Source of the DNA: an uncultured Planctomycetales bacterium
GTDB taxonomy: Bacteria > Omnitrophota > Gorgyraeia > Zapsychrales > JANLHA01
Length of the DNA: 64,000 nucleotides
NCBI GenBank assembly: GCA_964474085.1
Contig: CAYYRJ010000001.1
Coordinates: forward strand, 91,631 to 155,630
Reading direction: 5' to 3'
Shown here: positions 2,441 to 23,169 of the stretch, piece by piece
Numbering within the stretch: position 1 is the first letter of the stretch
Layout: each line of letters starts with the position of its first letter
Position numbers and translations under genes: made by a program
The notes under the pieces: model-generated
What the model was told of the DNA's origin: nothing
The model's input: only the letters and a program-made list of their open reading frames with translations
Database searches by the model: none

Positions 2441-2543
2441 TATTGCACTTTATCATGTATTCAGCAAGTATTTCCGGTTCTTCCTCAATAATAAATTTAA
2501 TGATTAAAAGATTTTAATTGCTGTTTTGAAGGAGGCTTACCCT

Positions 2544-5500: not shown

Positions 5501-5747
5501 TGACCCGACTTTGATGAATCTTCAAGTCAAGCGTGACAAAAACGGCGTTCCGCTACCGGTATTTCAACAGGATTTGCCCAATATCAATATCGAAGGACTT
5601 TATCCGGTGATTATAAATATCGCGCCGGCAACGCTGGCGAACTTTCCTCTTTTAAGTAAGGCTGAGGAAGAAAAGCAAAGAATCCCGTCGGTCAAAGACG
5701 ATATATCTCCTGTGGATCGGCAAAAATTGGTGGGTCGGGCAGGATAA
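2544..5747 (+). CDS. Large secreted modular protein, paralog 1 of 4: conserved N-domain, coiled-coil-rich core, conserved C-terminal tail
   Basis: RBS gaaggagg precedes ATG 2544 (the ORF track starts at TTG 2526). Signal-peptide-like N-terminus. The N-domain motifs NPFLFDFIV, WVNLSPYE, IIPDALGKTEMG, FNKVWIVP, NEGKNFAAVRQIY and YFSGG are shared with the genes at 11559, 15877 and 19720. The C-terminus GGINFDPTLMNLQVKRDKNGVPLPVFQQ...YPVIINIAPA is shared as well. The core is charged and coiled-coil-like (EKEVQRIENIQKIEQERLKERAERLVELRGKVENL...). Confidence 0.75.
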   Translation: MFLSFAHRPKFTLIRKVVSSIMTVAFLTSLSTPAGAQLASLLPTPGSAVTISPVFVPPTLKGLNIHPENPFLFDFIVGRGDEKVQGEALKAESEKLVKFFLTAMTIPDKEAWVNLSPYETNRIIPDALGKTEMGKVMLEQDYLLKQLASSLTNPDTDLGKKFWTNVRAKAKEKFGTTDIPMSTFNKVWIVPAKAEVAEKDGKVFITKNSLKVMLEEDYVAMSNQKDIAESRAPARDQAPLTAEAMASRGALSTPSDVASSVALDSGRSTLEKTANVQPPTSSLSSEVFRSTILPSIEKEINEGKNFAAVRQIYDAAILAVWYKSALKESLLGKIYADKSKVKGIETDAVGFKEEVYKQYVAAFKKGAYNMIKEDFDMTKDESVPTRYFSGGMSTAYPAGVAVSSGVTESEANLSTDDVIVQVVGTEGPEAPVVAQAAAAQSAASAVEDNLDKYVMDLRAEGLSYEQMYRAFESRYNTNRRLLQDVANNFLFTKDEKTAAPLAADYKQAYEMALAQLSELDNLFLLFFEDVNKRINALKAEGQSETQAINDVLEKEVQRIENIQKIEQERLKERAERLVELRGKVENLFPEIEKELVQIQTTVTASLAADADQSQKDAAIRSEIQRRYDALKARIEQRVRQINFGKDVKTTNILPGQALPRAISELSLQDQIRYQLFPELQKQMEKMTLSNPSANDKFDRALKAAKEETIKRTLAASSAIDKPQIAITGGTIEIIFANGESARYQLPTDLAVRSVFPLRVKAEDFFAAISIKGDSQNKNYRILILNKNGQRVDTVGKATDQVIAAAEFALESIKAAHKQERFVKLILSKTPEFAIPQGKENATDLAKKMLKGWEKIAASSSLEDEALKQKAEVQLRNDLDLPGDASIDVVIAEYLKNKKGSDEVAFNIKFYNQGDYPGGIEGFYEDLVIARMQDLPEYQEQMDPEMAELLAAGRKIIDDEFSDVPSSMPAGEQKSSSPLKPVGGINFDPTLMNLQVKRDKNGVPLPVFQQDLPNINIEGLYPVIINIAPATLANFPLLSKAEEEKQRIPSVKDDISPVDRQKLVGRAG

Positions 5748-8990: not shown

Positions 8991-9018
8991 GCGGCGGTAT
9001 TTTTAAGGAGGAAAAGCC

Positions 9019-9573: not shown

Positions 9574-9583
9574 ACCACTATAA

Positions 9584-11332
9584 ATGGCGTATTCATTTAC
9601 CCAAATTGAAAAAGAAAAAAGTCGCACGATCACTGCGGCTTTTTTCTTTTTGGTGTTTGTTTATTTTGCCGGGATTTGGGTCATTGCCTTATTAATTAGA
9701 AATTTTTGGTTTTTTCAAAGTCAATTTGATTCCCGACATGTCGTTTTTTCGGATCAATCTTTTGTTTGGTTAGGTTGGTTGGACAGTTTTTATATTGCGT
9801 TTTGGTCTTTTGTTGTCGCAGGGGCCCATTGGTTCTTTGCCTCGTTGGGCTTAGTCGAACGGCTCAACGGTGTTTTTAATGCGAAGCCGCCTGACAGCAA
9901 TGATCCTGATGAGAAAATGTTTCAAAATATTGTTGAGGAAGTTTCGGTAGCTACCGGCGGGGTTCCCATTCGTCCGATGATAATCCCCAGCATGATGCTC
10001 AATGCTTGCGCTTATGCCGACGGGAATTCTGTCCCGGTCATTGCGGTGACCAAGGGACTTCTTTCAAAATTAAATCGCAATCAATTGGAAGCTGTCGTAG
10101 GTCATGAGGCCGCGCATGTTGTTAGCGAAGATTGTCAAAGCACGACGATTATAAGTGCGATGTTTGAAATTTTTGGCGCGGCTTTGATGGCGGGACAAAC
10201 CATTGCCGAGGGGGCGTTTGGAGCAAATAAAAGAGAAGACCGCAGTTGGGGGGTCAGTGGCAATTTCCCGTCGGGTGGTGGCAGAGGATCAGGACAAGGT
10301 GCTTTTTTTATCGTATTTGTGGTGATTATTATTTTTATCATTTGGCTCGTAAAAAGTTTGGCGCTCTTGATGCGAATGTTTATTTCCCGCCAGCGCGAGT
10401 ACCGTGCGGACGCGACCGCCGTGCGGTTGACCCGCAACCCCCAAGCCTTGGCCGAGGCTTTGTATATTATCGGTCACCGTCGGCATTCGCTCTATGAAGG
10501 GGAAGATTCTTTGCAAAGTTTATTTATCATAAACCCCGCCGAGTCGATTTTAAATGACCGCGAGGGTGTTGTCGCGGATTTGTTCTCAACGCATCCGCCA
10601 CTGCAGGAGCGGATCACAATCCTTTTGTCTATGGCCAATAGCAGTCAGGAGGTTTTAGAGAACACTCTCAAAAATGTCACGGACAAAGAAGAACAACAAT
10701 TGCAAGAGCGGCAAAAAGTTTTTGGTCAGGCTCAAGGCGGTTTGTGGTACGTCCAGACGCCGGGGAACAATTGGTCGGGGCCGCACAATATAAGTGCGAT
10801 GTTAGCTTTTGAATGGCTTGTGCCCCAGACTCGGGTTCGTAAAATGGGCGAGAACACGGTTATGCCCGTTTCGAGTATTGAAAATTATATGACCGCGCAT
10901 AAAGAGACATTAAAAAGTCATCCGGCGTTGACTTGCCCCTCGTGCAGCGGGACGATGGCAGAAATCCTTTATGAGGGCATCAAAATTCTGGAGTGTCAAC
11001 AATGTCACGGCGTTTTGGTCAATGAAGAAAAAATCAGTATGATTTTGGCACGTAAAGACAAGACTTTTGACAGCCGTATTAAGCAAATGGCAAGGACTTT
11101 GCTCGAGGAAAAACAATTGTCGATTAAGGATAGCAGTCTGTCTTTTGAGTCACAGCGAATGTATCGCTGCGATCAGTGCAAAAACAATCCGCACAAAATG
11201 CGGCGGCGAATTTTTAACCGTTATTTTCCTGTTGAGATTGATAAATGCCAGCAGTGCGGCTTGACGTGGTTTGATAAAGATGAGTTGGAAGTTATGCAAT
11301 GCCTGTATGAAATGCGAAATGCGCAACTTTAG
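9584..11332 (+). CDS. M48-family (HtpX-like) zinc metallopeptidase with two C-terminal zinc-ribbon modules
   Basis: N-terminal TM segments, HEXXH (GHEAAHV), a later TM hairpin and an Ala-Glu region. The C-terminus carries two Cys4 ribbons (CPSCSG...CQQCHG and CDQCKN...CQQCG). Sits directly downstream of lemA. Confidence 0.7.
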   Translation: MAYSFTQIEKEKSRTITAAFFFLVFVYFAGIWVIALLIRNFWFFQSQFDSRHVVFSDQSFVWLGWLDSFYIAFWSFVVAGAHWFFASLGLVERLNGVFNAKPPDSNDPDEKMFQNIVEEVSVATGGVPIRPMIIPSMMLNACAYADGNSVPVIAVTKGLLSKLNRNQLEAVVGHEAAHVVSEDCQSTTIISAMFEIFGAALMAGQTIAEGAFGANKREDRSWGVSGNFPSGGGRGSGQGAFFIVFVVIIIFIIWLVKSLALLMRMFISRQREYRADATAVRLTRNPQALAEALYIIGHRRHSLYEGEDSLQSLFIINPAESILNDREGVVADLFSTHPPLQERITILLSMANSSQEVLENTLKNVTDKEEQQLQERQKVFGQAQGGLWYVQTPGNNWSGPHNISAMLAFEWLVPQTRVRKMGENTVMPVSSIENYMTAHKETLKSHPALTCPSCSGTMAEILYEGIKILECQQCHGVLVNEEKISMILARKDKTFDSRIKQMARTLLEEKQLSIKDSSLSFESQRMYRCDQCKNNPHKMRRRIFNRYFPVEIDKCQQCGLTWFDKDELEVMQCLYEMRNAQL

Positions 11333-11558
11333 GCAGGTTAAATTCCAAGCGGGAAAGAAAAAATTTCTTTTCAGCGTTTGATCATCGTGCTATGATTCTT
11401 TCATTAAATCTTTCCTATTTTTGTCGTCGTGCAATTCTTCGTTTTCTGATCTGTTAAAAGTCCTTAGCCAGCAACATTTATTTGCTTTCCAAGGGCTTTT
11501 CTTTTATTGTTCTGAAATTTCCTAATATCATATCTTCCCCAAACAGGAGGGACACTTG

Positions 11559-14500
11559 ATGAAAAAAAATCTTTTCATGACAAACCATGCGTTTGCGCGT
11601 CGGGTAACGAGTTTTTTCATGCTCATTGTCTTTTCGCTGACCACGATTCTTTTGCCGGCTCAAGCCAGCGCCCAGAGCATTGGCATTCCCGGCGTTAATC
11701 TTCCGGCTGTCGGAACAATGCTTGGATTAAGCGAAAGTTTTCAACCGGCGATTATCCGTGGGATGACGGTGTATCCGGACAATCCTTTGAAATTTGATTT
11801 TATTGTCAATACTGGCGACAAAAACCTTAAAGGCCAGGCGCTTGAAAAAGAGTCGCAGAAGCTGATCAAATATTTTTTGGCGTCGTTAACGACACCGGAG
11901 AATGAGTTTTGGGTCAATCTCTCGCCGTATGAAAGCGGACGGATTATTCCTGAAGCTTTGGGTACAACCGAAATGGGCCGGGATATGTTGGCGCAGGATT
12001 ATATTCTTAAGCAGTTGACTGCGTCTTTGTTGTATCCGGAAAAAGATTTAGGCAATAAATTCTGGCAACGAGTGCATGAAAAAGCCAAAAAGCTTTATGG
12101 GGTCAGCGAAGTTCCAGTGGACACTTTTAATAAAGTGTGGATTATGCCGGACAAAGCAGCGGTTTACGAAAACGATAATCGGGTTTTTGTCGTCGAGCGG
12201 CATTTGAAGGTGATGTTGGCGGAGGACTATGAGAAAAATTTAACTCCCCCCAGCCCCCTCTTTAAAAAAGCGGGGGAGAGCGGGAGCACTCAACTAACCC
12301 CCTCTTTAGATAAAGAGGGGGAAGGGGGAGTTCTGAAGAATAACATTCCCTCCCAAATCATGCGCGAACTGATCATCCCCGAGATCGAAAAGGAAGTCAA
12401 CGAAGGGGAGAATTTTGCTGTTGTGCGACAGATTTATAATTCGATGATTTTAGCGACGTGGTACAAAAAACGTTTGAAAGAAAGTCTTTTGGGCCAAGTG
12501 TATGTTAACCAAAACAAAGTTAAGGGCATTGACTTAGCCGATAAAGCGACAAAACAAAAAATTTACGAACAGTATTTGGCCGCGTTTAAGAAGGGTGTTT
12601 ACAACTATATTAAGGAAGATGTCGACGCTCTGACTAACGAACCGATTCCAACCAAGTATTTTTCGGGCGGGTTGACCGCAGGTGCTGTGACACAAGCGGC
12701 TTTGACTGAATATAATGGTGAACTTTCCCGCCAACCGAAAGTTGTCTCTGCCGCGGTCACACAGCCGCTGACAGACAAGGGAGAGGACGTCGTTGTTTCC
12801 TCGACGCTGGTAGAAAATGCCAATCAAGCCCAAGCCGCCGCTGCAACTCCAATCAAGTCCGTTTTGACAGACCTCAGAACAAACGCTTCTTTCGCAATTC
12901 CGAAATCATCGTTTATGGATACTAAACTTTATCAACTCACCGGAGCAGCAAGTACGTGGTCTGTTTCCATGGGAGGGATAATGGAGAGAATTCAAGGTTT
13001 TGGACTTGGCGCAGAGACGTGGGCGATAGAGGCTGCCGAGTTTGCAACATATCATCCGGGAACAGTTTTGCTAGGCGCTATCGCGTTTTATGCAGTTGCC
13101 TCTTTTGACCCGATTGGGTACTTTAGAAATAAAGTGGATTTTAACTTAAGGCAAGCGAATGCACTTAAGGATGATGATCAAAAACGTTATCTTTATTTAG
13201 ATAGAATTGTTGCGCGGGGACAAGAAGTTGTTCCTGACTTATTGAATCAATTTCAACAGCCCGACGCTAGTCAGGCTAAGGTACGTGATATTGCTTATGT
13301 ATTGGGAAAACTTAAAGTTGCCCAAGCTGTTGAGCCGTTGATTTCTAAATTTAGTCAAAATATTGCAGTTGATGAAATTGTTGTAGCTTTAGGAGAAATC
13401 GGAGGACAGAAGGCTAGTGAACTGCTAGCACAACAGCTTTTAGAGAAAGGTTCACTTAGAAGCATCGCTGTTGCAGAAGGTTTAGTGAAATTGGGTGTTG
13501 ATCGTGGCAAAGAATTTTTGTTTGAAATGTTAAAGAGTACGGATATTAAGCTGCGGACAGCGGCCAGAGTTTCTTTAAGTCGTTTGGAGATCAATGATGC
13601 GCCCGCGGTTATAATTTATGATGAGGTTTATCAAAGACTGCAAGCAGTAGTAAGTCCTGAAAATATCACTCTTCAATATAATTTTGCTTCTGAATTTTCT
13701 GCGGCTTATGCGATTGCTTTGAGTGGAGGGGATTTTTACGTTACGTATGTTTCCGAGGCAACAGTTCTTCGTCCTGTTAAGGAAAATTCTTCCCTGAATG
13801 CTGATTATGAGAAAGTTATTGTGCCGGCAAAATTGGTAATTGTTAAAGAAGGTAATAAGTCTAGCCCTTCCTCCGCCTCGTCAGGGATTGATAAACTACA
13901 ACTCACCGGTGCGGTGGGTGATCTGACGGTTTCTGCACAGGGCGTTTCGGAGTTAGCAAAGGATTCGTTAACAGAAAGAACGTCTGATTCCAGCAGTTCG
14001 GCGATTACGCGATGGCTCGATAATTCATATCTTTGGAATGTCCGGCAATTGTTACCTCGTTTTCCCACAGAGAAAAGATTAAAAGCTCTCGGCAATTTGG
14101 TCCGCTTAAACGATTCCAGGGCTATAGAGTCGATCCGTCCTTTGTTGGGTGATGATAATTCACAGATCAAAGCTCGTGCCGCATATGCGTTAGGGCATTT
14201 TAATGATCAAAATGTAAAAGGTCAGCTTCTTTCTTTGTTGTCTGATCCTTGGACAGAAGTTCGAAAAGCTGCACGAGGAGCTCTCACGCGTTTTGGAACG
14301 GAAACTAATGAATTGATTGACGCGAATATAAAGGCACTTTCCGCTTCCAAGGAAGCTAGGCTTGAAGCGGCAAATGAGCTTGCGCAGTTAGGTCGCGGGA
14401 GGGACGACGTTTATAACGCATTACTTTCTTTATTGGAATCGATTGATTCTGATGATCGACTTGTTGGTGCAAACGCGTTAGGTTGGTTGCAAGATTCACG

Positions 14501-15785
14501 TGCCGGCCAACGGCTTTTAGCGTTATTAGACAAAGAGTTTGAATCAAGCAAAGTTATTGAGCAAGTCATACATTCTTTGGGGCGACTTAAAGAATATCAG
14601 GCGCAAGAGCCATTAATTAAGATGCTTTTTAGCTATAGCGAATTAGAGATCAGTGCGTATCGGGCATTGCGTCAGATTGGTGGCCCAAAGGCTAACTTTA
14701 TTATTTCTGTTGTTGAGAAAATAAAAAGCCAAAATCCTGATCTTTTGGATAGCGAGATTTTGGGAGTGTTATTGCCCAAAGTTTTTCTAATGTCCATTGA
14801 AGGATATGATTTTGTTGCGACCTATACGCCGCAAGAAGGTCATATGTCAACGCAGGTACAAGAAGGCTTTTATTCAGATGCCCAAGGATATGTGCCTTTT
14901 AGGCATGTATTTGGACCATACTTTATCCAGACCAAAGAGGGAATTCCTGTGAACGTGGTTAGAGGAAAAAAGACTTCGAATCCGATCGCCATTTTTTCAG
15001 CAGAATTTATTGATTCGTTGCGCAGTTCTCTTCAACCTCATTTAGAAGATGACCAATTGGGCGTTTCGCTGAGACTTGGTGAACCCCAGGAAGAAATCCA
15101 GAGTTCTTCCTCGGCCGCGATTGATATAGAAAAAATCATTACAGATATTAAATCTGGTGATCAACTGGCCGTTGAGACTTTGATTAGTTTGTTGGCAAAT
15201 GAATCTCGTTCTTATCGTCAGCGTGTTAGAGCAGTATTAAAAGATTTAAATATCAATGACCTTCGGATTGATCTTTATGACAGCGTTGAACAACGATTGC
15301 GGGCAACGGTTCCTGCCGATGTGGATTTTGATGTTTTTGGGCAAAAAGTCCTTGAAGCGTATCGCATTGTTTTGGCTGGGGATGATTTTAGTGCTGAATA
15401 TGTTCAAAGGATGCTAACAGAATATGATTGGAGCGGAATATATGATACTTATAGCTGGCCGGAGGATCCAAACAATCGCGAGTATCAAACTCTTGATCCG
15501 GACAGCTTGACTATTACAAGGATACCAAAGACTACAGATAGCGGTGTCGCCTCGGCCGCGGTGACCCAACCCGTCGGTGGTATCGACTTTAATTCGGCGG
15601 CGCTGGATTTGCAGATTAAACGCGACGGCAATGGTGTTGCGCTGCCCTTGCCGCAGCAGACAATTCAAAATATGAAAATCGACGGATTTTATCCGGTTAT
15701 TATCAACATCGCGCCGGTCAATATTCCGATGCTTTTGGGACAAAAGACACAAAAAGAGCCGATACAGTTAAGTGCGTTAAGATAA
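11559..15785 (+). CDS. Large secreted modular protein, paralog 2 of 4: conserved N-domain, HEAT-repeat core, conserved C-terminal tail
   Basis: RBS aggaggg. Signal peptide MKKNLFMTNHAFARRVTSFFMLIVFSLTTILLPAQASAQS. The N-domain is as in paralog 1. HEAT/PBS-lyase-like repeats are present (LGEIGGQKASELL, LGHFNDQNVKGQLLSLLSD, LGWLQDSRAGQRLLALL). The C-terminal tail is GGIDFNSAALDLQIKRDGNGVALPLPQQ...YPVIINIAPV. The first roughly 770 codons are nearly identical to the next gene. Confidence 0.75.
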   Translation: MKKNLFMTNHAFARRVTSFFMLIVFSLTTILLPAQASAQSIGIPGVNLPAVGTMLGLSESFQPAIIRGMTVYPDNPLKFDFIVNTGDKNLKGQALEKESQKLIKYFLASLTTPENEFWVNLSPYESGRIIPEALGTTEMGRDMLAQDYILKQLTASLLYPEKDLGNKFWQRVHEKAKKLYGVSEVPVDTFNKVWIMPDKAAVYENDNRVFVVERHLKVMLAEDYEKNLTPPSPLFKKAGESGSTQLTPSLDKEGEGGVLKNNIPSQIMRELIIPEIEKEVNEGENFAVVRQIYNSMILATWYKKRLKESLLGQVYVNQNKVKGIDLADKATKQKIYEQYLAAFKKGVYNYIKEDVDALTNEPIPTKYFSGGLTAGAVTQAALTEYNGELSRQPKVVSAAVTQPLTDKGEDVVVSSTLVENANQAQAAAATPIKSVLTDLRTNASFAIPKSSFMDTKLYQLTGAASTWSVSMGGIMERIQGFGLGAETWAIEAAEFATYHPGTVLLGAIAFYAVASFDPIGYFRNKVDFNLRQANALKDDDQKRYLYLDRIVARGQEVVPDLLNQFQQPDASQAKVRDIAYVLGKLKVAQAVEPLISKFSQNIAVDEIVVALGEIGGQKASELLAQQLLEKGSLRSIAVAEGLVKLGVDRGKEFLFEMLKSTDIKLRTAARVSLSRLEINDAPAVIIYDEVYQRLQAVVSPENITLQYNFASEFSAAYAIALSGGDFYVTYVSEATVLRPVKENSSLNADYEKVIVPAKLVIVKEGNKSSPSSASSGIDKLQLTGAVGDLTVSAQGVSELAKDSLTERTSDSSSSAITRWLDNSYLWNVRQLLPRFPTEKRLKALGNLVRLNDSRAIESIRPLLGDDNSQIKARAAYALGHFNDQNVKGQLLSLLSDPWTEVRKAARGALTRFGTETNELIDANIKALSASKEARLEAANELAQLGRGRDDVYNALLSLLESIDSDDRLVGANALGWLQDSRAGQRLLALLDKEFESSKVIEQVIHSLGRLKEYQAQEPLIKMLFSYSELEISAYRALRQIGGPKANFIISVVEKIKSQNPDLLDSEILGVLLPKVFLMSIEGYDFVATYTPQEGHMSTQVQEGFYSDAQGYVPFRHVFGPYFIQTKEGIPVNVVRGKKTSNPIAIFSAEFIDSLRSSLQPHLEDDQLGVSLRLGEPQEEIQSSSSAAIDIEKIITDIKSGDQLAVETLISLLANESRSYRQRVRAVLKDLNINDLRIDLYDSVEQRLRATVPADVDFDVFGQKVLEAYRIVLAGDDFSAEYVQRMLTEYDWSGIYDTYSWPEDPNNREYQTLDPDSLTITRIPKTTDSGVASAAVTQPVGGIDFNSAALDLQIKRDGNGVALPLPQQTIQNMKIDGFYPVIINIAPVNIPMLLGQKTQKEPIQLSALR
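11587..13889. repeat. Copy A of a 2.3-kb near-identical direct repeat (tandem segmental duplication)
   Basis: Matches 15905-18207 at a constant offset of 4318 bp. The embedded antisense ORFs translate identically. Only one a/g difference was noticed, near the 3' boundary. Confidence 0.8.
12241..12336. repeat. Palindromic element of about 95 bp inserted in-frame within a CDS (translates as LTPPSPLFKKAGESGSTQLTPSLDKEGEGGVL)
   Basis: ctccccccagccccctctttaaaaaagcgggggagagcggg...accccctcttt-agat-aaagaggggg (a perfect 10-bp stem) aagggggag. Near-identical copies lie at 16559-16654 and 20404-20499. Confidence 0.6.
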
Positions 15786-15876
15786 ATTATCAATAAGAAG
15801 AATATCTTTCGTGGCAGATTTTTTATTATCGTTCTAAAAAATTCCTCATTTTTCATTTAAACAGGAGGCACACATT

Positions 15877-18800
15877 ATGAAAAAAAACTTTTTTATGATG
15901 AATTATGCGTTTGCGCGTCGGGTAACGAGTTTTTTCATGCTCATTGTCTTTTCGCTGACCACGATTCTTTTGCCGGCTCAAGCCAGCGCCCAGAGCATTG
16001 GCATTCCCGGCGTTAATCTTCCGGCTGTCGGAACAATGCTTGGATTAAGCGAAAGTTTTCAACCGGCGATTATCCGTGGGATGACGGTGTATCCGGACAA
16101 TCCTTTGAAATTTGATTTTATTGTCAATACTGGCGACAAAAACCTTAAAGGCCAGGCGCTTGAAAAAGAGTCGCAGAAGCTGATCAAATATTTTTTGGCG
16201 TCGTTAACGACACCGGAGAATGAGTTTTGGGTCAATCTCTCGCCGTATGAAAGCGGACGGATTATTCCTGAAGCTTTGGGTACAACCGAAATGGGCCGGG
16301 ATATGTTGGCGCAGGATTATATTCTTAAGCAGTTGACTGCGTCTTTGTTGTATCCGGAAAAAGATTTAGGCAATAAATTCTGGCAACGAGTGCATGAAAA
16401 AGCCAAAAAGCTTTATGGGGTCAGCGAAGTTCCAGTGGACACTTTTAATAAAGTGTGGATTATGCCGGACAAAGCAGCGGTTTACGAAAACGATAATCGG
16501 GTTTTTGTCGTCGAGCGGCATTTGAAGGTGATGTTGGCGGAGGACTATGAGAAAAATTTAACTCCCCCCAGCCCCCTCTTTAAAAAAGCGGGGGAGAGCG
16601 GGAGCACTCAACTAACCCCCTCTTTAGATAAAGAGGGGGAAGGGGGAGTTCTGAAGAATAACATTCCCTCCCAAATCATGCGCGAACTGATCATCCCCGA
16701 GATCGAAAAGGAAGTCAACGAAGGGGAGAATTTTGCTGTTGTGCGACAGATTTATAATTCGATGATTTTAGCGACGTGGTACAAAAAACGTTTGAAAGAA
16801 AGTCTTTTGGGCCAAGTGTATGTTAACCAAAACAAAGTTAAGGGCATTGACTTAGCCGATAAAGCGACAAAACAAAAAATTTACGAACAGTATTTGGCCG
16901 CGTTTAAGAAGGGTGTTTACAACTATATTAAGGAAGATGTCGACGCTCTGACTAACGAACCGATTCCAACCAAGTATTTTTCGGGCGGGTTGACCGCAGG
17001 TGCTGTGACACAAGCGGCTTTGACTGAATATAATGGTGAACTTTCCCGCCAACCGAAAGTTGTCTCTGCCGCGGTCACACAGCCGCTGACAGACAAGGGA
17101 GAGGACGTCGTTGTTTCCTCGACGCTGGTAGAAAATGCCAATCAAGCCCAAGCCGCCGCTGCAACTCCAATCAAGTCCGTTTTGACAGACCTCAGAACAA
17201 ACGCTTCTTTCGCAATTCCGAAATCATCGTTTATGGATACTAAACTTTATCAACTCACCGGAGCAGCAAGTACGTGGTCTGTTTCCATGGGAGGGATAAT
17301 GGAGAGAATTCAAGGTTTTGGACTTGGCGCAGAGACGTGGGCGATAGAGGCTGCCGAGTTTGCAACATATCATCCGGGAACAGTTTTGCTAGGCGCTATC
17401 GCGTTTTATGCAGTTGCCTCTTTTGACCCGATTGGGTACTTTAGAAATAAAGTGGATTTTAACTTAAGGCAAGCGAATGCACTTAAGGATGATGATCAAA
17501 AACGTTATCTTTATTTAGATAGAATTGTTGCGCGGGGACAAGAAGTTGTTCCTGACTTATTGAATCAATTTCAACAGCCCGACGCTAGTCAGGCTAAGGT
17601 ACGTGATATTGCTTATGTATTGGGAAAACTTAAAGTTGCCCAAGCTGTTGAGCCGTTGATTTCTAAATTTAGTCAAAATATTGCAGTTGATGAAATTGTT
17701 GTAGCTTTAGGAGAAATCGGAGGACAGAAGGCTAGTGAACTGCTAGCACAACAGCTTTTAGAGAAAGGTTCACTTAGAAGCATCGCTGTTGCAGAAGGTT
17801 TAGTGAAATTGGGTGTTGATCGTGGCAAAGAATTTTTGTTTGAAATGTTAAAGAGTACGGATATTAAGCTGCGGACAGCGGCCAGAGTTTCTTTAAGTCG
17901 TTTGGAGATCAATGATGCGCCCGCGGTTATAATTTATGATGAGGTTTATCAAAGACTGCAAGCAGTAGTAAGTCCTGAAAATATCACTCTTCAATATAAT
18001 TTTGCTTCTGAATTTTCTGCGGCTTATGCGATTGCTTTGAGTGGAGGGGATTTTTACGTTACGTATGTTTCCGAGGCAACAGTTCTTCGTCCTGTTAAGG
18101 AAAATTCTTCCCTGAATGCTGATTATGAGAAAGTTATTGTGCCGGCAAAATTGGTAATTGTTAAAGAAGGTAATAAGTCTAGCCCTTCCTCCGCCTCGTC
18201 GGGGATTATGGAAAAGGCCAAGGCTCACGCTGTCATTTATTTCGGCCGTAAAGGTTTTAAAAAATCAATGCCTTATTTATTTAAGCTTTTAGGGCATAAA
18301 GATGAAAAGATTCGCTCAGAAGCTGAAGCAGTTTTAGTTAAGTTAGGGGCAACAAAAGAGCAAATGGTTGGTGCGTATATTATGGTTTTGAAAGGTTCTC
18401 CTAGGAACGGGGATCAGAAAAATGTTATTAAAAAATTGGGTGAAATTGGAGATAAAAAAACAATTGAGGTATTGTTGCCCTACTTAAAATTTAGTTGGTA
18501 CGAGTTTGAAGCCCAAACAGCTTTGGAAAAATTAGGCGTAACAAAAGAGCAAATAGTGGATTGGTATATTGTAGCTTTGAGTCAGGAACGAGATTATTAT
18601 AAGGATTATATTATTATAAGATTGGGTGAGCTTGGAGATCCGCGGGCAATTCCGGTATTATTGCCATATTTAGAAAGTAACGGTTTCACTGTAGCTAAAA
18701 TAGCTTTGACAAAGTTAGGCGTCACAAAAGAGCAAATGTCTGATGTTGTGAGTGAGCAGTTGGGAAGAGAATTTGTTGTTTATGATAAAAAACTCGATGA

Positions 18801-19602
18801 TAAGTATGTTTTAGATTTTAAAAGAAAACTTATTGGAAGATTAAATGAATTGGGGGATCCACGAGCAATTAAGCACTTATTGCCGTATTTAAATAGTAAC
18901 AATTACGCTGAAGCCCAAATAGCTTTGGAAAAATTAGGAGCAACAAAAGAGCAATTAACAGATGCGTATATTGTAGCGTTAGAAAACCCTTCTTTAGATA
19001 TTTCAATTGCTGCAGCAAATGCATTAGCTGACTTAGGGGATCAACGTTGCGTAGAGTTTTTGATTGAAACGTTGAAAAAAAGAAATGTGGTCAAGTCGTT
19101 AAATCGTCTGGGGATCCGTGACCCTAGGGTTGATCGTTTTAATGAGGTTGTTAGAAGAGTCCCTAGTAGTAATTTAATTGTTAAAGCGTATAACATTATT
19201 GAATCTGGTAATGATTTTATAGTTATTCATCACCCAGCTACGTATGAGATGTCAAATTATGACTGGTATGATCCGAACGGATTTAATTACGGACCTATTC
19301 CAATAGAGGTTTCTCCTTCTTCTGATTCACTTCAAATAATTCCAAAGGGTTCGCAGCCACCAGCAGCCTCGGCTGCTGTGACCACACCCGTTGGTGGTAT
19401 CGACTTTAATTCGGCGGCGCTTGATTTGCAGATTAAACGCGACAAAAAGGGCGTCCCGTTGCCTTTGCCCCAGCAGACGATACAAAACATGAAAATCGAC
19501 GGGTTTTATCCGGTCATTATCAATATCACGCCGGTCAATATTCCGATGCTTTTGGGACAAAAGACACAAAAAGAGCCGCAGCAGTTAAGTGCGTTAAGGT
19601 AA
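15877..19602 (+). CDS. Large secreted modular protein, paralog 3 of 4: N-terminus identical to paralog 2, different PBS-lyase HEAT-repeat core, conserved C-terminal tail
   Basis: RBS aggagg precedes ATG 15877. Identical to paralog 2 up to about aa 770, then at least five tandem repeats of about 46 aa (LGEIGDKKTIEVLLPYL..., LGELGDPRAIPVLLPYL..., LNELGDPRAIKHLLPYL..., LGxTKEQ). The C-terminal tail is GGIDFNSAALDLQIKRDKKGVPLPLPQQ...YPVIINITPV. Confidence 0.75.
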   Translation: MKKNFFMMNYAFARRVTSFFMLIVFSLTTILLPAQASAQSIGIPGVNLPAVGTMLGLSESFQPAIIRGMTVYPDNPLKFDFIVNTGDKNLKGQALEKESQKLIKYFLASLTTPENEFWVNLSPYESGRIIPEALGTTEMGRDMLAQDYILKQLTASLLYPEKDLGNKFWQRVHEKAKKLYGVSEVPVDTFNKVWIMPDKAAVYENDNRVFVVERHLKVMLAEDYEKNLTPPSPLFKKAGESGSTQLTPSLDKEGEGGVLKNNIPSQIMRELIIPEIEKEVNEGENFAVVRQIYNSMILATWYKKRLKESLLGQVYVNQNKVKGIDLADKATKQKIYEQYLAAFKKGVYNYIKEDVDALTNEPIPTKYFSGGLTAGAVTQAALTEYNGELSRQPKVVSAAVTQPLTDKGEDVVVSSTLVENANQAQAAAATPIKSVLTDLRTNASFAIPKSSFMDTKLYQLTGAASTWSVSMGGIMERIQGFGLGAETWAIEAAEFATYHPGTVLLGAIAFYAVASFDPIGYFRNKVDFNLRQANALKDDDQKRYLYLDRIVARGQEVVPDLLNQFQQPDASQAKVRDIAYVLGKLKVAQAVEPLISKFSQNIAVDEIVVALGEIGGQKASELLAQQLLEKGSLRSIAVAEGLVKLGVDRGKEFLFEMLKSTDIKLRTAARVSLSRLEINDAPAVIIYDEVYQRLQAVVSPENITLQYNFASEFSAAYAIALSGGDFYVTYVSEATVLRPVKENSSLNADYEKVIVPAKLVIVKEGNKSSPSSASSGIMEKAKAHAVIYFGRKGFKKSMPYLFKLLGHKDEKIRSEAEAVLVKLGATKEQMVGAYIMVLKGSPRNGDQKNVIKKLGEIGDKKTIEVLLPYLKFSWYEFEAQTALEKLGVTKEQIVDWYIVALSQERDYYKDYIIIRLGELGDPRAIPVLLPYLESNGFTVAKIALTKLGVTKEQMSDVVSEQLGREFVVYDKKLDDKYVLDFKRKLIGRLNELGDPRAIKHLLPYLNSNNYAEAQIALEKLGATKEQLTDAYIVALENPSLDISIAAANALADLGDQRCVEFLIETLKKRNVVKSLNRLGIRDPRVDRFNEVVRRVPSSNLIVKAYNIIESGNDFIVIHHPATYEMSNYDWYDPNGFNYGPIPIEVSPSSDSLQIIPKGSQPPAASAAVTTPVGGIDFNSAALDLQIKRDKKGVPLPLPQQTIQNMKIDGFYPVIINITPVNIPMLLGQKTQKEPQQLSALR
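15905..18207. repeat. Copy B of the 2.3-kb direct repeat
   Basis: See 11587-13889. Confidence 0.8.
16559..16654. repeat. In-frame palindromic element, copy 2
   Basis: Same sequence as 12241-12336. Lies inside the duplicated block. Confidence 0.6.
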
Positions 19603-19630
19603 AACAGTTTTAGAAAATTGTTTTTTAAAA

Positions 19631-19719: not shown

Positions 19720-22700
19720 ATGTCAATTTCTTCCAAACAGATAGCTCGTTTTTTGCGCAAGTCCTTATTTTGGCTTCTGATCGTTAGCTTTGCGCTAAAC
19801 ACCACCTTGCCGGCGTATGCCAAAGGGACGGAGGGTTTTTCTTTGCCTAGCGTCGGAGAGCAGGTTGCCTTAAGCTCTGCGTTTTCGCCAGTATTGCTAA
19901 AGGCGGTCAAAGTCAATCCGGATAATCCGTTTCAATTCGATTTTATCGTCGATGTCGGAAGCTCCAATTTGAAAGACGATGAATTAAAAGCGCAAGCGCA
20001 AAAACTGATCCGTTACTTTTTAGCGTCTTTGACAACGCCCGAAAATGATTTGTGGGTCAACCTTTCTCCGTATGAAAAAGAACGAATTATCCCAGAGTCT
20101 TTTGGTACAACTGAAATGGGTCGCGATCTTTTGGCAGAGGATTATTTGCTTAAGCAGATCACCGCGACTTTGCTTTCCCCGCAAGGGGAGCTGGGGAAAA
20201 AATATTGGGAAAAGGTTCATCGAGAAGAGACGTTAGACGTTAGACGCTTGACGCTGGCAAATAATTTAACCCCTAACCCCCAACCCCAAGCCACCAATAA
20301 TTTTAATAAAGTCTGGATCGTCCCGCAAAAGGCTGTTGTCTACGAGAATGGTACTACTGCTTACGTCGACGAAACGCATTTGAAAGTGATGATGGAAGAA
20401 GATTTAACTCCCCCCAGCCCCCTCTTTAAAAAAGCGGGGGAGAGCGGGAGCGTTCAATTAACCCCCTCTTTAGATAAAGAGGGGGAAGGGGGAGTTCTGA
20501 CAACCATCGTCCAGCGTCCATCGTCCATCGTCTCTGGTCAGCCTCGGCCGGATGGCCTCGGCATTCCCTCGGACGTTGCGTCCTCGGTCATACGTGAGTT
20601 CATCATCCCAGAGCTTGAGAAAGAAGTTAACGAAGGTAAAAATTTTGCGCCTTTGCGTCAGATTTACAATTCACTAATTCTTGCAAATTGGTATAAGAAG
20701 CGATTAAAAAACAGCATTCTTTCGCAGGTCTATGTTGATAAGAACAAGCTAGCCGGCATTGACTTAGATGACAAAGAACAAGCTCAGAAAATTTATGATC
20801 AGTATGTCGCAGCTTTTAAAAAAGGCGTTTATAACTATATCAAAGAAGACTATGACCCAGCGACGCAAGAAACCGTTCCGCGTAAATATTTTTCGGGCGG
20901 AATGGGTTTCGCCAGCTCGAGCGCGGCGACGCAATACCGTCAAGGTTTGCCTGAAAATGCTGGCGTTGCAAGCTCTGGATTGCGTAAAATTACGGTCGAT
21001 ACTCGACCATATGACACGAAAGAATTGGAAGACAAAGAAGTTCTTAAGCGGTTTGCAAAAATACAAGCTCAAAATAATGATAAAGCTAGACTTGCGCAGA
21101 GCAAGAATCGTGTTTACGAGGTGTTTAATTTGTCTGGGTTAAAACACATTGATTTTGCTTCTATGTATGAAGCATCTCAATCGGTTGCGCATACGCCAGC
21201 GTGGGGGGGTGTCGTTGCGATTCAGCCGTTATTGACCAAGTTTATCGACGATGTTTTTGAAAAAGCTTTGGATTTTGATGATCCGAAAGCAACTCAGATT
21301 GTATTTTTGCAGGCTGGGGCCCAACCGATTTATGAGACTGCGGTTTTAATGGCCAAAGTTACTGGAGTTTTTCCTGCCGAAAACCTTAAGAGCGTTTGGG
21401 CCACAATGGGAAATTATCGGCAAATGAAGGACGATAAAGAACAACGCTTACTATTTATTAAGTATTTGCATGATCAGGGAGTTTTGTCGCCGAAGACGAA
21501 ACATTTATTAATTGTTGATACCGACGCTGGAATTGTTGAAATCGGCACAGCAGCAATTTTTGCAAAAACACTTTTGGATAATGATGTTCTTCAAACGGCA
21601 AATCAGCGGTTTGGATTAAACATCAAGCTTTTTAATGAAGTTGGAGGTGAAAACACTTTAGATTTTTCTTATTTGTATAGCGCCTATGTTGCAAGTCCTG
21701 CAAAACGTGAAATTCATATTAAGGCTGAAAAAATATCTGGGCAAATAGACGCTAAATTACGCATTGAAGGATATAACGACAATACATCGGACATAGATCA
21801 AGCCATTCGCATTTCTAACCTATGGTATCCTGTTGACAGTTTTGTAAAAACGGCGAATATTTCTGATCGTTTTTCTTTAGATCAGGAAGGGCGATCCCAG
21901 GTGACTTTTCTGGCGCCCAATAAGCAACCTTATGATAATTTGAAGATATTAAATTTACTCCGTGCGGTTGAGGATATTGGTTTGTTAATAGGGACGCTTA
22001 ACGTTATGAGTGCCAAGGGTTTTGATGTGGCAGAGCAGGCGGACCAGTTGATTGAAAGGCTAGAGGACGTTTTTAAAACAAGCGGGGTCACGCAAGCGGA
22101 TATCGATGCTTCCAAACCGCAGCAAGGTTATCGGGCGTCTTCGTCGATCGCGTTTGGGACATCCGCAAAGATGCTTTTAAGTCCCCAAGATTTGGCCCGA
22201 TCAGAGGTTGTTAGCGTTCTACATACAATTGAGGATAGTGTAACAGGAAAACGTCGGATGACTTTAGAAATTAAGTCGCCCGATGGTAAAACTTTTATTT
22301 TAAAACTTTATAGTAAAAGCGAAGATTTCAATAATGAATCGTTGGGGTATGCTGTGGCCGAGAAACTTGGGATGCATGTGCCTAAGCATCAAGAGTTTGA
22401 AGAGTCGTCTGATTTTGATGGATTAGTCAAACAAGCCGTTAAAGTTGGGAATATTCTGCCGCAAATGGCTGAGCCTTACGGTTGGGCACGCTTGATTGAG
22501 CAGGTACAAGAATATAAAACGGATAAACCTTATAATGGATTAGAAGAATTGGTCGTTTTTACACATTTGATGCATTTTGAAGATTACGATAAATTAAAAC
22601 CGCAACAAATTTTTTCAAGGAATATATTTTTCACAAAAGACGGTAAGTATGTCGTTTATGATTATGAAACGGAGTGGGATGTAGATTTTTCAAATAATTA

Positions 22701-23169
22701 TTTTTCTAAGTATAAAGATGTAGCCTATAGAATTGATCAGGGCAGATTAGAAAATGTTATTAAAGTAGCCCGCAAATTAACGGCTGATGATTTTCGAGAT
22801 CTTCTGGTGACTGATCAAAGCCGTCAAAATTTTCAAAAACGGGTTGAGAGCTTCGAGGAGGATATGATTCGACAATTGGGATATTTCCGCGATGAACCTC
22901 AGGCCGTTCGACTCTTGGAGATCGTCAAAAACATGCCGTCATCTTCGGATGTCGGCGGGATTGATTTGACGGCTGGCAAAACGCCGTTGGATATCCGCGC
23001 CCAAAGCGAGCCGGTCGAGTTTAATTTTGACCCTCAACAGCTGCAAAATTTGCAATTCGACGGCTTGGTACCGGTGATTATTAACATTGCCCCGGTTATT
23101 AATCTTCCGCAATTTTTAACCGAAAAACCTGTCTTTCAATCCGCCGGGCAGTTAAGCAGATCCAATTGA
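19720..23169 (+). CDS. Large secreted modular protein, paralog 4 of 4: conserved N-domain, distinct globular core (possibly kinase-like), conserved C-terminal tail
   Basis: Signal peptide MSISSKQIARFLRKSLFWLLIVSFALNTTLPAYAKG. N-domain motifs NPFQFDFIV, WVNLSPYE, IIPESFGTTEMGRDLL, FNKVWIVP, NEGKNFAPLRQIY and YFSGG. The C-terminus is GGIDLTAGKTPLDIRAQSEPVEFNFDPQQLQNLQFDGLVPVIINIAPV. About 50% identical to paralogs 2 and 3 in the N-domain. Confidence 0.75.
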   Translation: MSISSKQIARFLRKSLFWLLIVSFALNTTLPAYAKGTEGFSLPSVGEQVALSSAFSPVLLKAVKVNPDNPFQFDFIVDVGSSNLKDDELKAQAQKLIRYFLASLTTPENDLWVNLSPYEKERIIPESFGTTEMGRDLLAEDYLLKQITATLLSPQGELGKKYWEKVHREETLDVRRLTLANNLTPNPQPQATNNFNKVWIVPQKAVVYENGTTAYVDETHLKVMMEEDLTPPSPLFKKAGESGSVQLTPSLDKEGEGGVLTTIVQRPSSIVSGQPRPDGLGIPSDVASSVIREFIIPELEKEVNEGKNFAPLRQIYNSLILANWYKKRLKNSILSQVYVDKNKLAGIDLDDKEQAQKIYDQYVAAFKKGVYNYIKEDYDPATQETVPRKYFSGGMGFASSSAATQYRQGLPENAGVASSGLRKITVDTRPYDTKELEDKEVLKRFAKIQAQNNDKARLAQSKNRVYEVFNLSGLKHIDFASMYEASQSVAHTPAWGGVVAIQPLLTKFIDDVFEKALDFDDPKATQIVFLQAGAQPIYETAVLMAKVTGVFPAENLKSVWATMGNYRQMKDDKEQRLLFIKYLHDQGVLSPKTKHLLIVDTDAGIVEIGTAAIFAKTLLDNDVLQTANQRFGLNIKLFNEVGGENTLDFSYLYSAYVASPAKREIHIKAEKISGQIDAKLRIEGYNDNTSDIDQAIRISNLWYPVDSFVKTANISDRFSLDQEGRSQVTFLAPNKQPYDNLKILNLLRAVEDIGLLIGTLNVMSAKGFDVAEQADQLIERLEDVFKTSGVTQADIDASKPQQGYRASSSIAFGTSAKMLLSPQDLARSEVVSVLHTIEDSVTGKRRMTLEIKSPDGKTFILKLYSKSEDFNNESLGYAVAEKLGMHVPKHQEFEESSDFDGLVKQAVKVGNILPQMAEPYGWARLIEQVQEYKTDKPYNGLEELVVFTHLMHFEDYDKLKPQQIFSRNIFFTKDGKYVVYDYETEWDVDFSNNYFSKYKDVAYRIDQGRLENVIKVARKLTADDFRDLLVTDQSRQNFQKRVESFEEDMIRQLGYFRDEPQAVRLLEIVKNMPSSSDVGGIDLTAGKTPLDIRAQSEPVEFNFDPQQLQNLQFDGLVPVIINIAPVINLPQFLTEKPVFQSAGQLSRSN
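20404..20499. repeat. In-frame palindromic element, copy 3 (about 97% identical to copy 1 within otherwise diverged flanks)
   Basis: ctccccccagccccctctttaaaaaagcgggggagagcgggagcgttcaattaaccccctctttagataaagagggggaagggggag. The flanking nucleotides are not conserved with paralog 2. Confidence 0.6.

What the first reader, a model, noticed from the sequence alone, without database searches (positions are those of the whole stretch)
11587..18207. A 2.3-kb near-identical tandem duplication fuses a shared 5' module to two different HEAT-repeat cassettes
Positions 11587-13889 and 15905-18207 differ by at most a few SNPs at a constant 4318-bp offset. They encode the first roughly 770 aa of paralogs 2 and 3. 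Identity breaks abruptly (GIDKLQL... versus GIMEKAKA...). It resumes at about 90% for the last roughly 90 codons (the conserved C-tail). The result is conserved 5' block, then a different middle (1.9 kb versus 1.4 kb), then a conserved 3' block. This is what homologous recombination-driven cassette exchange, or a very recent duplication followed by core replacement, would look like. Antigenic or phase-variation loci have a similar appearance.
Basis: seen in the sequence. Interest (0 to 1): 0.6.

Follow-up and report, generated by a model that had tools for sequence, protein, structure and literature searches.

The report
Gene conversion between two neighbouring paralogs
Two neighbouring genes for secreted HEAT-repeat proteins in an Omnitrophota bacterium share an identical 2.3-kb front end, most likely because one gene recently overwrote the other by recombination; this is an ordinary process, seen here in an uncharacterised and fast-changing protein family.

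Summary
Window 11587-13882 and 15905-18200 are identical over 2,296 nt, with one mismatch at 13883, and similarity ends after 13889. The two copies are the first 777 codons of adjacent genes B (11559-15785) and C (15877-19602). These belong to an uncharacterised Omnitrophota family built as signal peptide, conserved ~400-aa N-domain, variable middle, and conserved C-terminal tail.

The identical tract sits between older paralogous sequence: the 5' flank is about 78% identical, and the tail is 89% identical with dS about 0.41. This fits recent gene conversion between older paralogs, not a fresh duplication.

An independent assembly of a near-identical strain (L091) shows the same B-C order. Its C copy keeps six extra differences, three of which match a relative, so the 5' end of the tract varies between strains and the transfer there ran from B to C.

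Close relatives carry one gene with B-like and C-like modules (L090), or one B-like gene (L092), so module content changes quickly. I found no silent cassettes or recombinase, so programmed antigenic or phase variation is not supported.

Exact 100% identity may be an assembly artefact; reads are needed to check it.

The parts
2526..5747 (+). Paralog A (1073 aa). It has the same N-domain (about 45% aa to B/C) and C-terminal tail (about 49%), with an unrelated middle.
11497..11586 (+). B upstream region, ribosome-binding site (AGGAGG) and first 28 nt of the coding sequence. It is homologous to 15819-15904 of C but diverged (about 78%, with indels), so it is the older paralogous flank on the 5' side of the tract.
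11559..15785 (+). Gene B (1408 aa from the ATG). Order: signal peptide (AQASA|QS), N-domain, HEAT+cap module M1, B-specific HEAT modules, tail. Exactly this protein is encoded in an independent ENA assembly (P0122/L091).
11587..13882 (+). Copy 1 of the perfectly identical 2,296-nt tract, taken to be the donor copy. It spans the N-domain and module M1.
12242..12335 (+). GC-rich nested palindrome, translated in frame, in the disordered loop of the N-domain. The same element lies at 16560-16653 (C) and 20406-20499 (D).
12858..13889 (+). Module M1 (HEAT repeats plus a small cap domain plus the Ser-rich linker SSPSSASSGI). It is present in B, C and relative Q (L092) and absent from relative R (L090).
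13883..13889 (+). 3' edge of the tract: the single A/G mismatch followed by six identical bases before homology ends inside the Ser-rich linker.
13890..15548 (+). B-specific middle, two further HEAT/cap modules. Its start (DKLQLTGAVGDLTVS...) is shared with relatives R and Q, so the M1-to-B-cassette junction is old.
15549..15785 (+). B C-terminal tail domain (GGIDF...PVIINIAPV...). It is 89% nt identical to the C tail, with 16 synonymous and 6 non-synonymous codon differences.
15877..19602 (+). Gene C (1241 aa). Order: own diverged start (MKKNFFMMNY), then the identical N-domain+M1, the C-specific HEAT cassette, a cap, and the tail.
15905..18200 (+). Copy 2 of the identical tract, taken to be the recipient. 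In strain L091 the first ~100 nt still differ at 6 sites.
18208..19365 (+). C-specific cassette. It has four diverged tandem HEAT units of 183-219 nt (18318-18980) and low G+C (0.36 against 0.44 for the window). A related cassette follows a similar linker in relative R.
19366..19602 (+). C-terminal tail of C.
19720..23169 (+). Paralog D (1149 aa). N-domain is 53% aa to B/C, the middle is unique, the tail is 40%. Against its ortholog in L090 the middle is 96-100% nt identical, but the N-domain and tail are only 74-90%.

Best explanation
B and C are older tandem paralogs of a large, uncharacterised Omnitrophota family of Sec-exported modular proteins. The family layout is signal peptide, conserved N-domain, variable middle (here PBS-lyase-type HEAT arrays with small cap domains joined by Ser-rich linkers), and a conserved ~75-aa C-terminal tail.

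A recent intrachromosomal homologous recombination event, a non-reciprocal gene conversion with B as donor and C as recipient, overwrote the first ~2.3 kb of C (N-domain plus module M1) with the B sequence. The 5' endpoint lies inside the signal-peptide codons. The 3' endpoint lies where B-C homology stops, in the linker before the gene-specific cassettes.

Conversion is recurrent rather than a single event. Only the family-wide conserved ends offer homology, so they get homogenised within a genome, while the HEAT middles diverge, expand, and are gained or lost at the linkers.

Shown: the mosaic identity pattern, the strain difference in the tract endpoint, the architecture differences among relatives, and the absence of variation machinery in the window. 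Inferred: the mechanism (RecA-type conversion), the B-to-C direction over the whole tract, and export or surface location.
For: 1. Mosaic ages along the B/C pair:
- 5' flank: about 78% identical.
- Tract: 0 differences in 2,296 nt.
- HEAT arrays: unalignable.
- Cap region: about 30% aa.
- Tail: 89% nt, with dS 0.41 and dN 0.06.
If the tract were as old as the tail, the chance of zero differences would be about 1e-121; even at 1% divergence it would be about 1e-10.

2. The only mismatch (13883) sits 7 nt from the end of homology, as expected for a conversion tract that stops just short of the heterology.

3. Independent assembly L091 (ENA ERZ4216102; 8 SNPs in 8 kb of unique flank) has the same M48-B-C order. 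Its C copy differs from its B copy at six further sites (window-equivalent 11615-11688). At three of those sites L091-C matches relative Q, and at one of them also relative R. So the window's C was converted about 100 nt further than L091's C, in the direction B to C.

4. Paralogs are more alike than orthologs. B equals C, whereas B against the positional ortholog R in MAG GCA_964635405.1 is only 72-95% nt per 150-nt block across the N-domain outside the loop. D against its ortholog is 96-100% in the unique middle but 74-90% in the N-domain and tail, which are the parts that have paralogous donors.

5. Both junctions are old. The M1-linker-to-B-cassette junction occurs in Q (L092). The cap-linker-to-C-like-cassette junction occurs in R (L090). 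So neither junction is a fresh illegitimate joint.

6. A tail pair at 85% nt in another family locus (L063) shows similar homogenisation of the ends elsewhere.

7. General recombination genes (recO, ruvA) are present in the window. No site-specific recombinase, transposase or reverse transcriptase is present.
Against: No reads were available. If the contig came from a de Bruijn graph in which the repeat is one edge traversed twice, which is probably the case for L091, the interior identity is identical by construction. Sparse differences between the copies would then have been erased, so the true identity may be about 98-100%.

For the same reason, the 17 SNPs that L091 shares in both of its copies cannot be counted as evidence of concerted evolution.

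The 3' endpoint coincides with the loss of homology. It therefore cannot be shown that C had its own M1 before the event. A recombination that newly gave C the M1 module is not excluded.

Only two relatives' architectures, plus one near-identical strain, are available, so the ancestral state (one gene or two) is unresolved.

Other family loci sampled from metagenomes show no comparable near-identical paralog tracts, although short-read assembly would tend to break such repeats.
Confidence: 0.7

Rival explanations
1. Recent segmental duplication and fusion. A copy of B's 5' 2.3 kb was newly placed in front of a different HEAT cassette, creating C. This matches the reader's 'recent duplication followed by core replacement' or a domain-shuffling event, with no earlier homologous 5' part in C.
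For: Identity ends abruptly at a module boundary in a Ser-rich linker, and the C-specific part begins with ATG. The C cassette has a distinct G+C of 0.36. Gene number and module content differ among close relatives.
Against: Homology continues upstream of the tract at about 78%, including C's own ribosome-binding site and start region. The C tail is 89% identical, with dS 0.41, so it is not new. L091-C retains differences inside the N-domain coding sequence, three of which match a relative. The linker-to-C-like-cassette junction also exists in relative R. A plain tandem duplication would make all 4,318 nt identical, but only 2,303 are.
Confidence: 0.15
2. Assembly artefact. The two copies are a collapsed, mis-joined or over-polished repeat. 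In reality there is one copy, or the two copies are clearly different.
For: Perfect 2.3-kb repeats are hard to assemble. L091 is a low-coverage (about 4x) scaffolded SPAdes contig in which the repeat is likely one graph edge used twice. Three assemblies break in the shared upstream ~55 nt.
Against: The order M48 -> B 5' flank, B tail -> C 5' flank, and C tail -> D is fixed by unique sequence on both sides of each copy. The only linear path that includes the B cassette uses the repeat twice. Two independent assemblies of slightly different strains give the same order and the same 3' boundary, yet resolve different copy-specific SNPs near the 5' boundary. Exactly the B protein is on record from another data set.
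Confidence: 0.07
3. Programmed antigenic or phase variation. The shared module is an expression or recombination platform onto which alternative HEAT cassettes are switched at high frequency.
For: The layout has conserved ends and a variable middle in putatively exported proteins. Cassettes differ strongly (40-46% aa) between relatives whose flanking genes are 91-98% identical. A conserved hairpin-forming element lies inside the shared module and could act as a break site.
Against: There are no silent or promoterless cassettes in 64 kb. There are no invertase, recombinase or reverse-transcriptase genes and no flanking inverted repeats. Both genes are intact and separately translatable. What was converted is the conserved part, not the variable part. 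Two strains show the same cassette arrangement.
Confidence: 0.05

Closest known systems
Intragenomic gene conversion between Helicobacter pylori bab paralogs (babA/babB/babC chimeras)
   Same: Both involve paralogous exported or surface protein genes with homologous 5' and 3' regions and a divergent middle. Non-reciprocal homologous recombination produces genes that share one end and differ in the middle. Tract endpoints lie in the 5' region and vary among strains (PMC4552749; here).
   Different: The bab loci are dispersed, the proteins are outer-membrane adhesins of known function, and conversion moves a CT-repeat phase-variation switch. Here the genes are adjacent, the function is unknown, no slippage switch was found, and the middles are HEAT-repeat modules.
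Concerted evolution of duplicated bacterial genes (for example tufA/tufB or rRNA operons); from my own knowledge, not checked in the library
   Same: Paralogs within a genome are more similar than orthologs between close relatives because of recurrent RecA-dependent conversion.
   Different: In those cases the whole gene is homogenised and selection favours identical products. Here only the family-conserved ends are homogenised and the middles stay different.
Cassette-based antigenic variation (Neisseria pilE/pilS, Borrelia vlsE, Anaplasma msp2); from my own knowledge
   Same: The layout of conserved flanks around a variable core, with gene conversion as the mechanism.
   Different: Those systems need one expression site plus arrays of silent partial cassettes, and the variable core is the part that gets replaced. 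Neither feature is present here.
HEAT-repeat regions of Omnitrophota giant extracellular proteins ('Archaeovorins')
   Same: Same phylum. HEAT_2-type repeats were reported there in predicted extracellular parts of secreted proteins and proposed to act as protein-binding or scaffolding surfaces (bioRxiv 10.1101/2023.11.21.568195; here).
   Different: Those proteins have tens of thousands of residues with many enzyme domains. The proteins here have 1,100-1,400 aa and are defined by an N-domain and a C-terminal tail that I did not find in Pfam or NCBIfam.
Rickettsia palindromic elements and other MITEs inserted in frame in genes (relevant to the loop palindrome only)
   Same: Short hairpin-forming repeats that are translated in frame within a surface loop of a protein (review PMC10969869, found but not read; here).
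   Different: In the window the element occurs only in the same loop of family paralogs, with no intergenic copies in 64 kb. It is replaced by a different palindrome in all paralogs of a close relative.

Membership tests
Gene conversion / concerted evolution between paralogs | A tract of (near) identity embedded in older, diverged paralogous sequence on both sides | tested here: met
   There are 0 differences in 2,296 nt, against about 78% identity at the 5' flank and 89% in the tail (dS 0.41).
Gene conversion / concerted evolution between paralogs | Paralogs within a genome are more similar than orthologs between close relatives in the affected region only | tested here: met
   B equals C. 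B against R is 72-95% nt per 150-nt block across the N-domain outside the loop. D against its ortholog is 96-100% in the unique middle and 74-90% in the N-domain and tail.
Gene conversion / concerted evolution between paralogs | Tract endpoints differ between strains, with the recipient keeping ancestral states outside the tract | tested here: met
   L091-C keeps 6 differences at 11615-11688. Three of them match relative Q, and one of these also matches R.
Gene conversion / concerted evolution between paralogs | Both endpoints lie in pre-existing homology | tested here: inconclusive
   The 5' endpoint does. The 3' endpoint coincides with the end of detectable homology, with a single mismatch 7 nt before it.
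Fresh tandem duplication | The whole repeat unit (here 4,318 nt) is identical, with a single novel junction | tested here: not met
   Only 2,303 of 4,318 nt are identical. The remainder is unalignable or 89% identical.
Programmed antigenic variation (expression site plus silent cassettes) | An array of silent, partial, promoterless cassettes homologous to the variable core | tested here: not met
   tblastn of the B and C cassettes against the whole window finds only themselves.
Programmed antigenic variation (expression site plus silent cassettes) | Within-population heterogeneity of the variable core or alternative junctions | not testable with these tools
   This needs reads. Two assemblies show the same arrangement.
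Phase variation by invertible element or slipped-strand repeat | A site-specific recombinase with flanking inverted repeats, or a hypermutable simple repeat that shifts the frame | tested here: not met
   No recombinase was found in the annotated ORFs. There is no relevant tandem repeat. The only homopolymer is the A8 run of the MKKN codons, identical in both genes and in the relatives.
HEAT-repeat proteins (Pfam HEAT_2 / HEAT_PBS) | Pfam match above the gathering score | tested here: met
   HEAT_2 scores 83-86 bits against a cut-off of 27.7 in B and C. There are also alphaRep/PBS-HEAT matches in the PDB.
Polymorphic toxin systems (Rhs/CDI type) | Conserved N-terminal part, variable C-terminal toxin, immunity gene, and displaced orphan C-terminal cassettes | tested here: not met
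   The C-terminus is the conserved part. No toxin or immunity domains were found and there are no orphan cassettes.
Two-partner secretion exoproteins (TpsA) | An N-terminal TPS domain and an adjacent ShlB/FhaC-type transporter | tested here: not met
   The N-domain has no Pfam hit, and the model is a helix/beta-hairpin mix rather than a beta-helix. A ShlB/POTRA neighbour was seen in one of five other loci only.
Assembly artefact (collapsed or mis-joined repeat) | Read depth and spanning reads are inconsistent with two copies | not testable with these tools
   Indirect evidence only: unique junctions on both sides of each copy, and the same order in the independent assembly L091.

The most novel reading that the evidence does not exclude
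The N-domain/tail family may be a built-in diversification system of Omnitrophota. In this reading, the genome-specific hairpin element fixed in the same disordered loop of every paralog acts as a break or pairing site that drives frequent gene conversion among paralogs. The Ser-rich linkers would act as shuffling points for binding cassettes. Together these would give a surface-protein repertoire that varies quickly between strains, for example for contact with hosts or prey. This has not been shown. Support is limited to four points: the hairpin's location only in family loops, its replacement in all paralogs of a close relative, a 15-SNP recombination patch ending about 70 nt from it in strain L091, and cassette turnover among relatives.
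Probability: 0.1. Interest if true: 0.7.

Novelty: new member of a known kind. Interest (0 to 1): 0.38.

Why it matters
The recombination event is textbook gene conversion. What it exposes is more useful.

First, it reveals a very large Omnitrophota protein family with no Pfam or NCBIfam model. The tail alone matches 4,176 clusters at 50% identity (E up to 0.001), and the N-domain search returned 1,279 hits (E up to 1e-5).

Second, the family's conserved ends are homogenised within genomes while its HEAT-repeat middles and gene number change between near-identical strains.

Two practical consequences follow. These genes will break or collapse short-read assemblies of Omnitrophota. Orthology and ANI-type comparisons across their N-domains and tails will be misleading.

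If the proteins are surface-exposed, the locus is a candidate for strain-level variation in cell-cell interaction in a phylum thought to include host-dependent nanobacteria.

Tried and rejected
- Exact look-up of protein C found nothing on record.
- A metagenome scan with the shared module returned only distant family members, at most 58% aa. Self-comparison of those 84 loci showed no other near-identical paralog tracts. It found only an 85% tail pair in L063 and an unrelated 333-nt repeat array in L060.
- I first read the contig ends of relatives L001 and L003 at the start of B as a sign that the perfect repeat is conserved in relatives. I withdrew this once L090 was found to overlap L003 by exactly 55 nt and to carry a single, fully assembled gene. 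The break seems to lie in a shared ~55-nt upstream segment.
- The 17 SNPs shared by both copies in L091 looked like concerted evolution. I set them aside because a collapsed graph edge would give the same result.
- No donor for that SNP patch was found in the window or in the relatives.
- The N-domain and tail have no Pfam or NCBIfam family.
- Foldseek against the PDB gave nothing significant for the N-domain. For a full short family member it gave only weak ClyA-type toxin hits: NheA, MakA and MakB, E 0.02-0.9, TM below 0.2.
- The AlphaFold2 model of a short full-length member left the tail at low confidence.
- No conserved gene neighbourhood was found for the family.
- Promoter and terminator scans were at or below background levels.
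- Rfam found nothing in the locus.
- Matching cap domains between B, C and R gave only one clear pair, R cap1 with the C cap. I therefore do not claim a detailed shuffling history.

Full report
**1. Observation**

At a constant offset of 4318 nt, window 11587-13882 and 15905-18200 are identical over 2,296 nt. One mismatch follows at 13883, then six identical bases. After 13889/18207 identity drops to the random level.

With gaps allowed, homology continues upstream to about 11497/15819, but there it is diverged: 10 mismatches in the 46 nt before 11587, plus indels further up.

The repeat is the 5' part of two adjacent genes. B runs 11559-15785; its real start is the ATG that aligns with C's start, behind an AGGAGG motif. 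C runs 15877-19602. The tails, 15549-15786 and 19366-19603, are 89% identical.

The middle sizes quoted include the tails. 'Tandem duplication' overstates the case, because only 2,303 nt of each 4,318-nt period are shared.

**2. What the genes are**

Four genes in the window share a ~400-aa N-terminal domain (40-53% aa) and a ~75-aa C-terminal tail, with unrelated middles:
- A: 2526-5747
- B: 11559-15785
- C: 15877-19602
- D: 19720-23169

B and C begin with a hydrophobic helix followed by AQASA|QS, a Sec-type signal peptide by inspection, and have no further transmembrane segment. Their middles are PBS-lyase-type HEAT repeats: HEAT_2 at 83-86 bits, plus alphaRep matches in the PDB. The HEAT arrays are arranged as array plus small cap domain, separated by Ser-rich linkers.

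The N-domain and tail match no Pfam or NCBIfam model. The N-domain has 1,279 database relatives (E up to 1e-5), and nearly all the named ones are from Omnitrophota/Omnitrophica, many of them partial. A profile of the tail finds 4,176 clusters at 50% identity (E up to 0.001), and in the listed best hits it sits at or near the C-terminus of proteins from about 100 aa (fragments) to about 5,000 aa.

An AlphaFold2 model of the N-domain is confident in its core and has no significant PDB neighbour. A model of a short full-length member gives only weak hits to ClyA-type toxins, which I treat as a lead only.

Family genes are scattered across genomes without a conserved neighbourhood. The rest of the window is housekeeping: groEL, guaB, guaA, lemA, an M48 protease, dnaE, hisS, aspS, smc, dnaG, rpoD, recO, ruvA, RNase P RNA and tRNAs. 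It contains no recombinase, transposase or diversity-generating reverse transcriptase.

**3. Duplication or conversion**

The B/C pair is a mosaic of different ages:
- 5' flank and first 28 coding nt: about 78% identical, including amino-acid changes.
- Next 2,296 nt: no differences.
- HEAT arrays: unalignable.
- Cap region: about 30% aa.
- Tail: an abrupt rise to 92% aa and 89% nt, with 16 synonymous and 6 non-synonymous codon differences (dS 0.41, dN 0.06).

If the tract had the age of the tail, about 260 differences would be expected. The probability of none is about 1e-121, and about 1e-10 even at 1% divergence.

A fresh tandem duplication would make the whole 4,318-nt unit identical, and it does not. 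The single mismatch, 7 nt from the end of homology, fits a conversion tract that stops just short of the heterology.

**4. Independent assembly and strain comparison**

The B protein is on record from another data set. Its contig, L091 (ENA ERZ4216102, 15.9 kb), corresponds to window 3234-19122, with 8 SNPs in 8 kb of unique flank. It shows the same order: M48, B, then C running into its cassette.

In L091 the two copies differ at six further sites, window-equivalent 11615-11688, so the identical tract there begins about 100 nt later. At three of these sites L091-C carries the state seen in relative Q, and at one of them also the state seen in relative R. Window B, window C and L091 B share the other state.

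The C copy of the window was therefore overwritten by B-type sequence further than the C copy of L091. This gives the direction B to C, at least for this ~100-nt stretch, and shows that at least two events, or one extension, separate two strains that are about 99.9% identical in the flanks.

L091 also differs from the window by 17 SNPs. Fifteen lie in 12020-12170, and all but one of those fifteen are at third codon positions. All 17 appear in both of L091's copies. Because a de Bruijn assembler may traverse one collapsed edge twice, I do not count this as evidence.

The same caveat applies to the window itself. The interior '100%' could hide sparse differences, but the contrast with the flanks would remain.

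**5. Relatives**

MAG GCA_964635405.1 has M48 at 91% nt. Its contigs L003 and L090 overlap by exactly 55 nt and give the order M48 - one gene R (1,272 aa) - the D ortholog.

R starts like B (MKKNLFMTNHAF) and lacks module M1. It contains a B-cassette-like module (46% aa). After a cap and the linker NSQPPSASSAI comes a C-cassette-like module (40% aa), and then the tail.

A third relative, L092 (dnaE 89% nt), has a single gene Q. Q is colinear with B, including an M1-like module and the junction ...TSSDTENLKLTGAAGDLTVSAQG. It is followed by a HEPN/nucleotidyltransferase pair and dnaE, with no C or D.

Three conclusions follow. Both junctions that border the identical tract are old. Gene number at this locus is 1, 2 or 3 among close relatives. 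Modules are gained or lost at the linkers.

The D orthologs are 96-100% nt identical in the unique middle but only 74-90% in the N-domain and tail. B against R is 72-95% per 150-nt block across the N-domain outside the loop, although B equals C. Regions that have paralogous donors therefore evolve 'faster' between genomes and 'slower' within them. This is the signature of ectopic conversion.

**6. Programmed variation**

No silent cassettes exist in the window, and there is no dedicated recombinase. Both genes are complete with their own ribosome-binding site and start codon. The converted part is the conserved part. I therefore rate programmed antigenic or phase variation as unsupported, though it cannot be excluded without reads.

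**7. Comparison with known systems**

The closest described parallel is gene conversion between H. pylori bab paralogs. They have homologous ends, a divergent middle, chimeras, and 5' endpoints within the first few hundred bases (PMC4552749). HEAT repeats have been reported in predicted extracellular parts of Omnitrophota giant proteins (bioRxiv 10.1101/2023.11.21.568195).

The event is a new member of a known kind. The protein family is uncharacterised.

**8. Side observation**

The disordered loop of the N-domain (pLDDT below 50) carries GC-rich nested palindromes translated in frame.
- B, C and D share one element of about 95 nt: RNA fold -52 kcal/mol, z -5.9, and 96-97% identical between B and D, whose flanks are about 68% identical.
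- In the relative L090, both R and the D ortholog instead carry a different palindrome at the same place.
- Distant family members carry the same hairpin type (L027, L032, L033) or another palindrome in that loop.
- In the 64-kb window the element occurs nowhere else.

Whether this is a loop-targeting mobile palindrome, a selected nucleic-acid structure, or a recombination hotspot remains open.

**9. Verdict**

The feature is real. It is best explained by recent and recurrent gene conversion between tandem paralogs (confidence about 0.7). As an event it is of modest interest. The family and its loop palindromes deserve a closer look.

Noticed in passing
window 12242-12335, 16560-16653, 20406-20499 (also A loop 3186-3419); L090 723-878 and 4648-4803; L033 10650-10712; L027 10650-10673; L032 7753-7777 and 6147-6171: The disordered loop of the family N-domain carries GC-rich nested palindromes translated in frame. 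The element is shared among paralogs of one genome: 96-97% nt identical between B and D, whose flanks are about 68% identical. A close relative has a different palindrome in both of its paralogs. Distant members have the same hairpin (CCCCCTCTTT..AAAGAGGGGG) or a GTCATTGCGAG...CTCGCAATGAC-type palindrome in the same loop. There are no other copies in the 64-kb window, and there is one intergenic, terminator-like copy in L032.
   Followed up: partly
window 12020-12170 (and 16338-16488) versus L091: A patch of 15 SNPs in 150 nt, all but one at third codon positions, separates strain L091 from the window inside the otherwise identical module. It ends about 70 nt before the palindrome. No donor was found in the window, L090 or L092. 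It appears in both L091 copies, which could be an assembly effect.
   Followed up: partly
window ~11491-11551; L003 end, L090 start, L092 start: Contigs from three different assemblies end or start within the ~55 nt upstream of the B start codon, and L003 and L090 overlap by exactly 55 nt. This upstream segment, also partly shared with C's upstream region, behaves as a graph branch point. It may be a promoter or 5'-UTR sequence repeated among family genes.
   Followed up: partly
window 35536-41665 (minus strand): Three tandem paralogs of 650-700 aa carry a beta-roll (LbR_Ice_bind) region and a C-terminal Peptidase_S74 intramolecular chaperone domain, which resembles tail-fibre or endosialidase-like proteins. 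Short stretches are 74-82% identical among them. This is another multi-copy putative surface-protein set.
   Followed up: no
window 5785-5891 versus 39584-39690 (inverted) and 37519-37586: A ~107-nt segment just downstream of paralog A is 85% identical, in inverted orientation, to the 5' end region of one of the S74-domain genes. It has a shorter match near another of them. It could be a gene fragment or a shared leader.
   Followed up: no
window 51076-51120 versus 51440-51484: A 45-nt internal part of tRNA-Val (51059-51132) is repeated at 93% identity about 360 nt downstream. It could be a tRNA remnant or a trace of an old integration site.
   Followed up: no
window 18208-19365: The C-specific HEAT cassette has G+C 0.36, against 0.44 for the window and 0.43 for the B cassette. 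It consists of four diverged tandem units of 183-219 nt (67-86% identical). This suggests recent unit expansion or a different origin.
   Followed up: partly
N-domain models (window 11559-12872; P0088): The best, though non-significant, Foldseek matches of a short full-length family member are ClyA-type alpha-pore-forming toxin components (NheA, MakA, MakB; E 0.02-0.9, TM below 0.2). This is only a lead on the fold of the N-domain.
   Followed up: partly
L001 5224-6326; L090 7526-10485; L092 3937-4613: Synteny around the locus differs among close relatives. L001 has two Hsp20-like ORFs (identified by eye, not searched) between M48 and the B ortholog. In L090, ligA follows D where the window has dnaE. 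In L092, a HEPN/nucleotidyltransferase pair lies between the single family gene and dnaE.
   Followed up: no
hits (e.g. P0034, P0035, P0076, P0081, P0094, P0117): Some family members have precomputed Pfam hits in their middle parts to ankyrin repeats, PGK, PGI, a PLP enzyme, ribosomal protein S9 or a response regulator. This hints at very diverse cargo between the conserved ends, or at merged gene calls.
   Followed up: no
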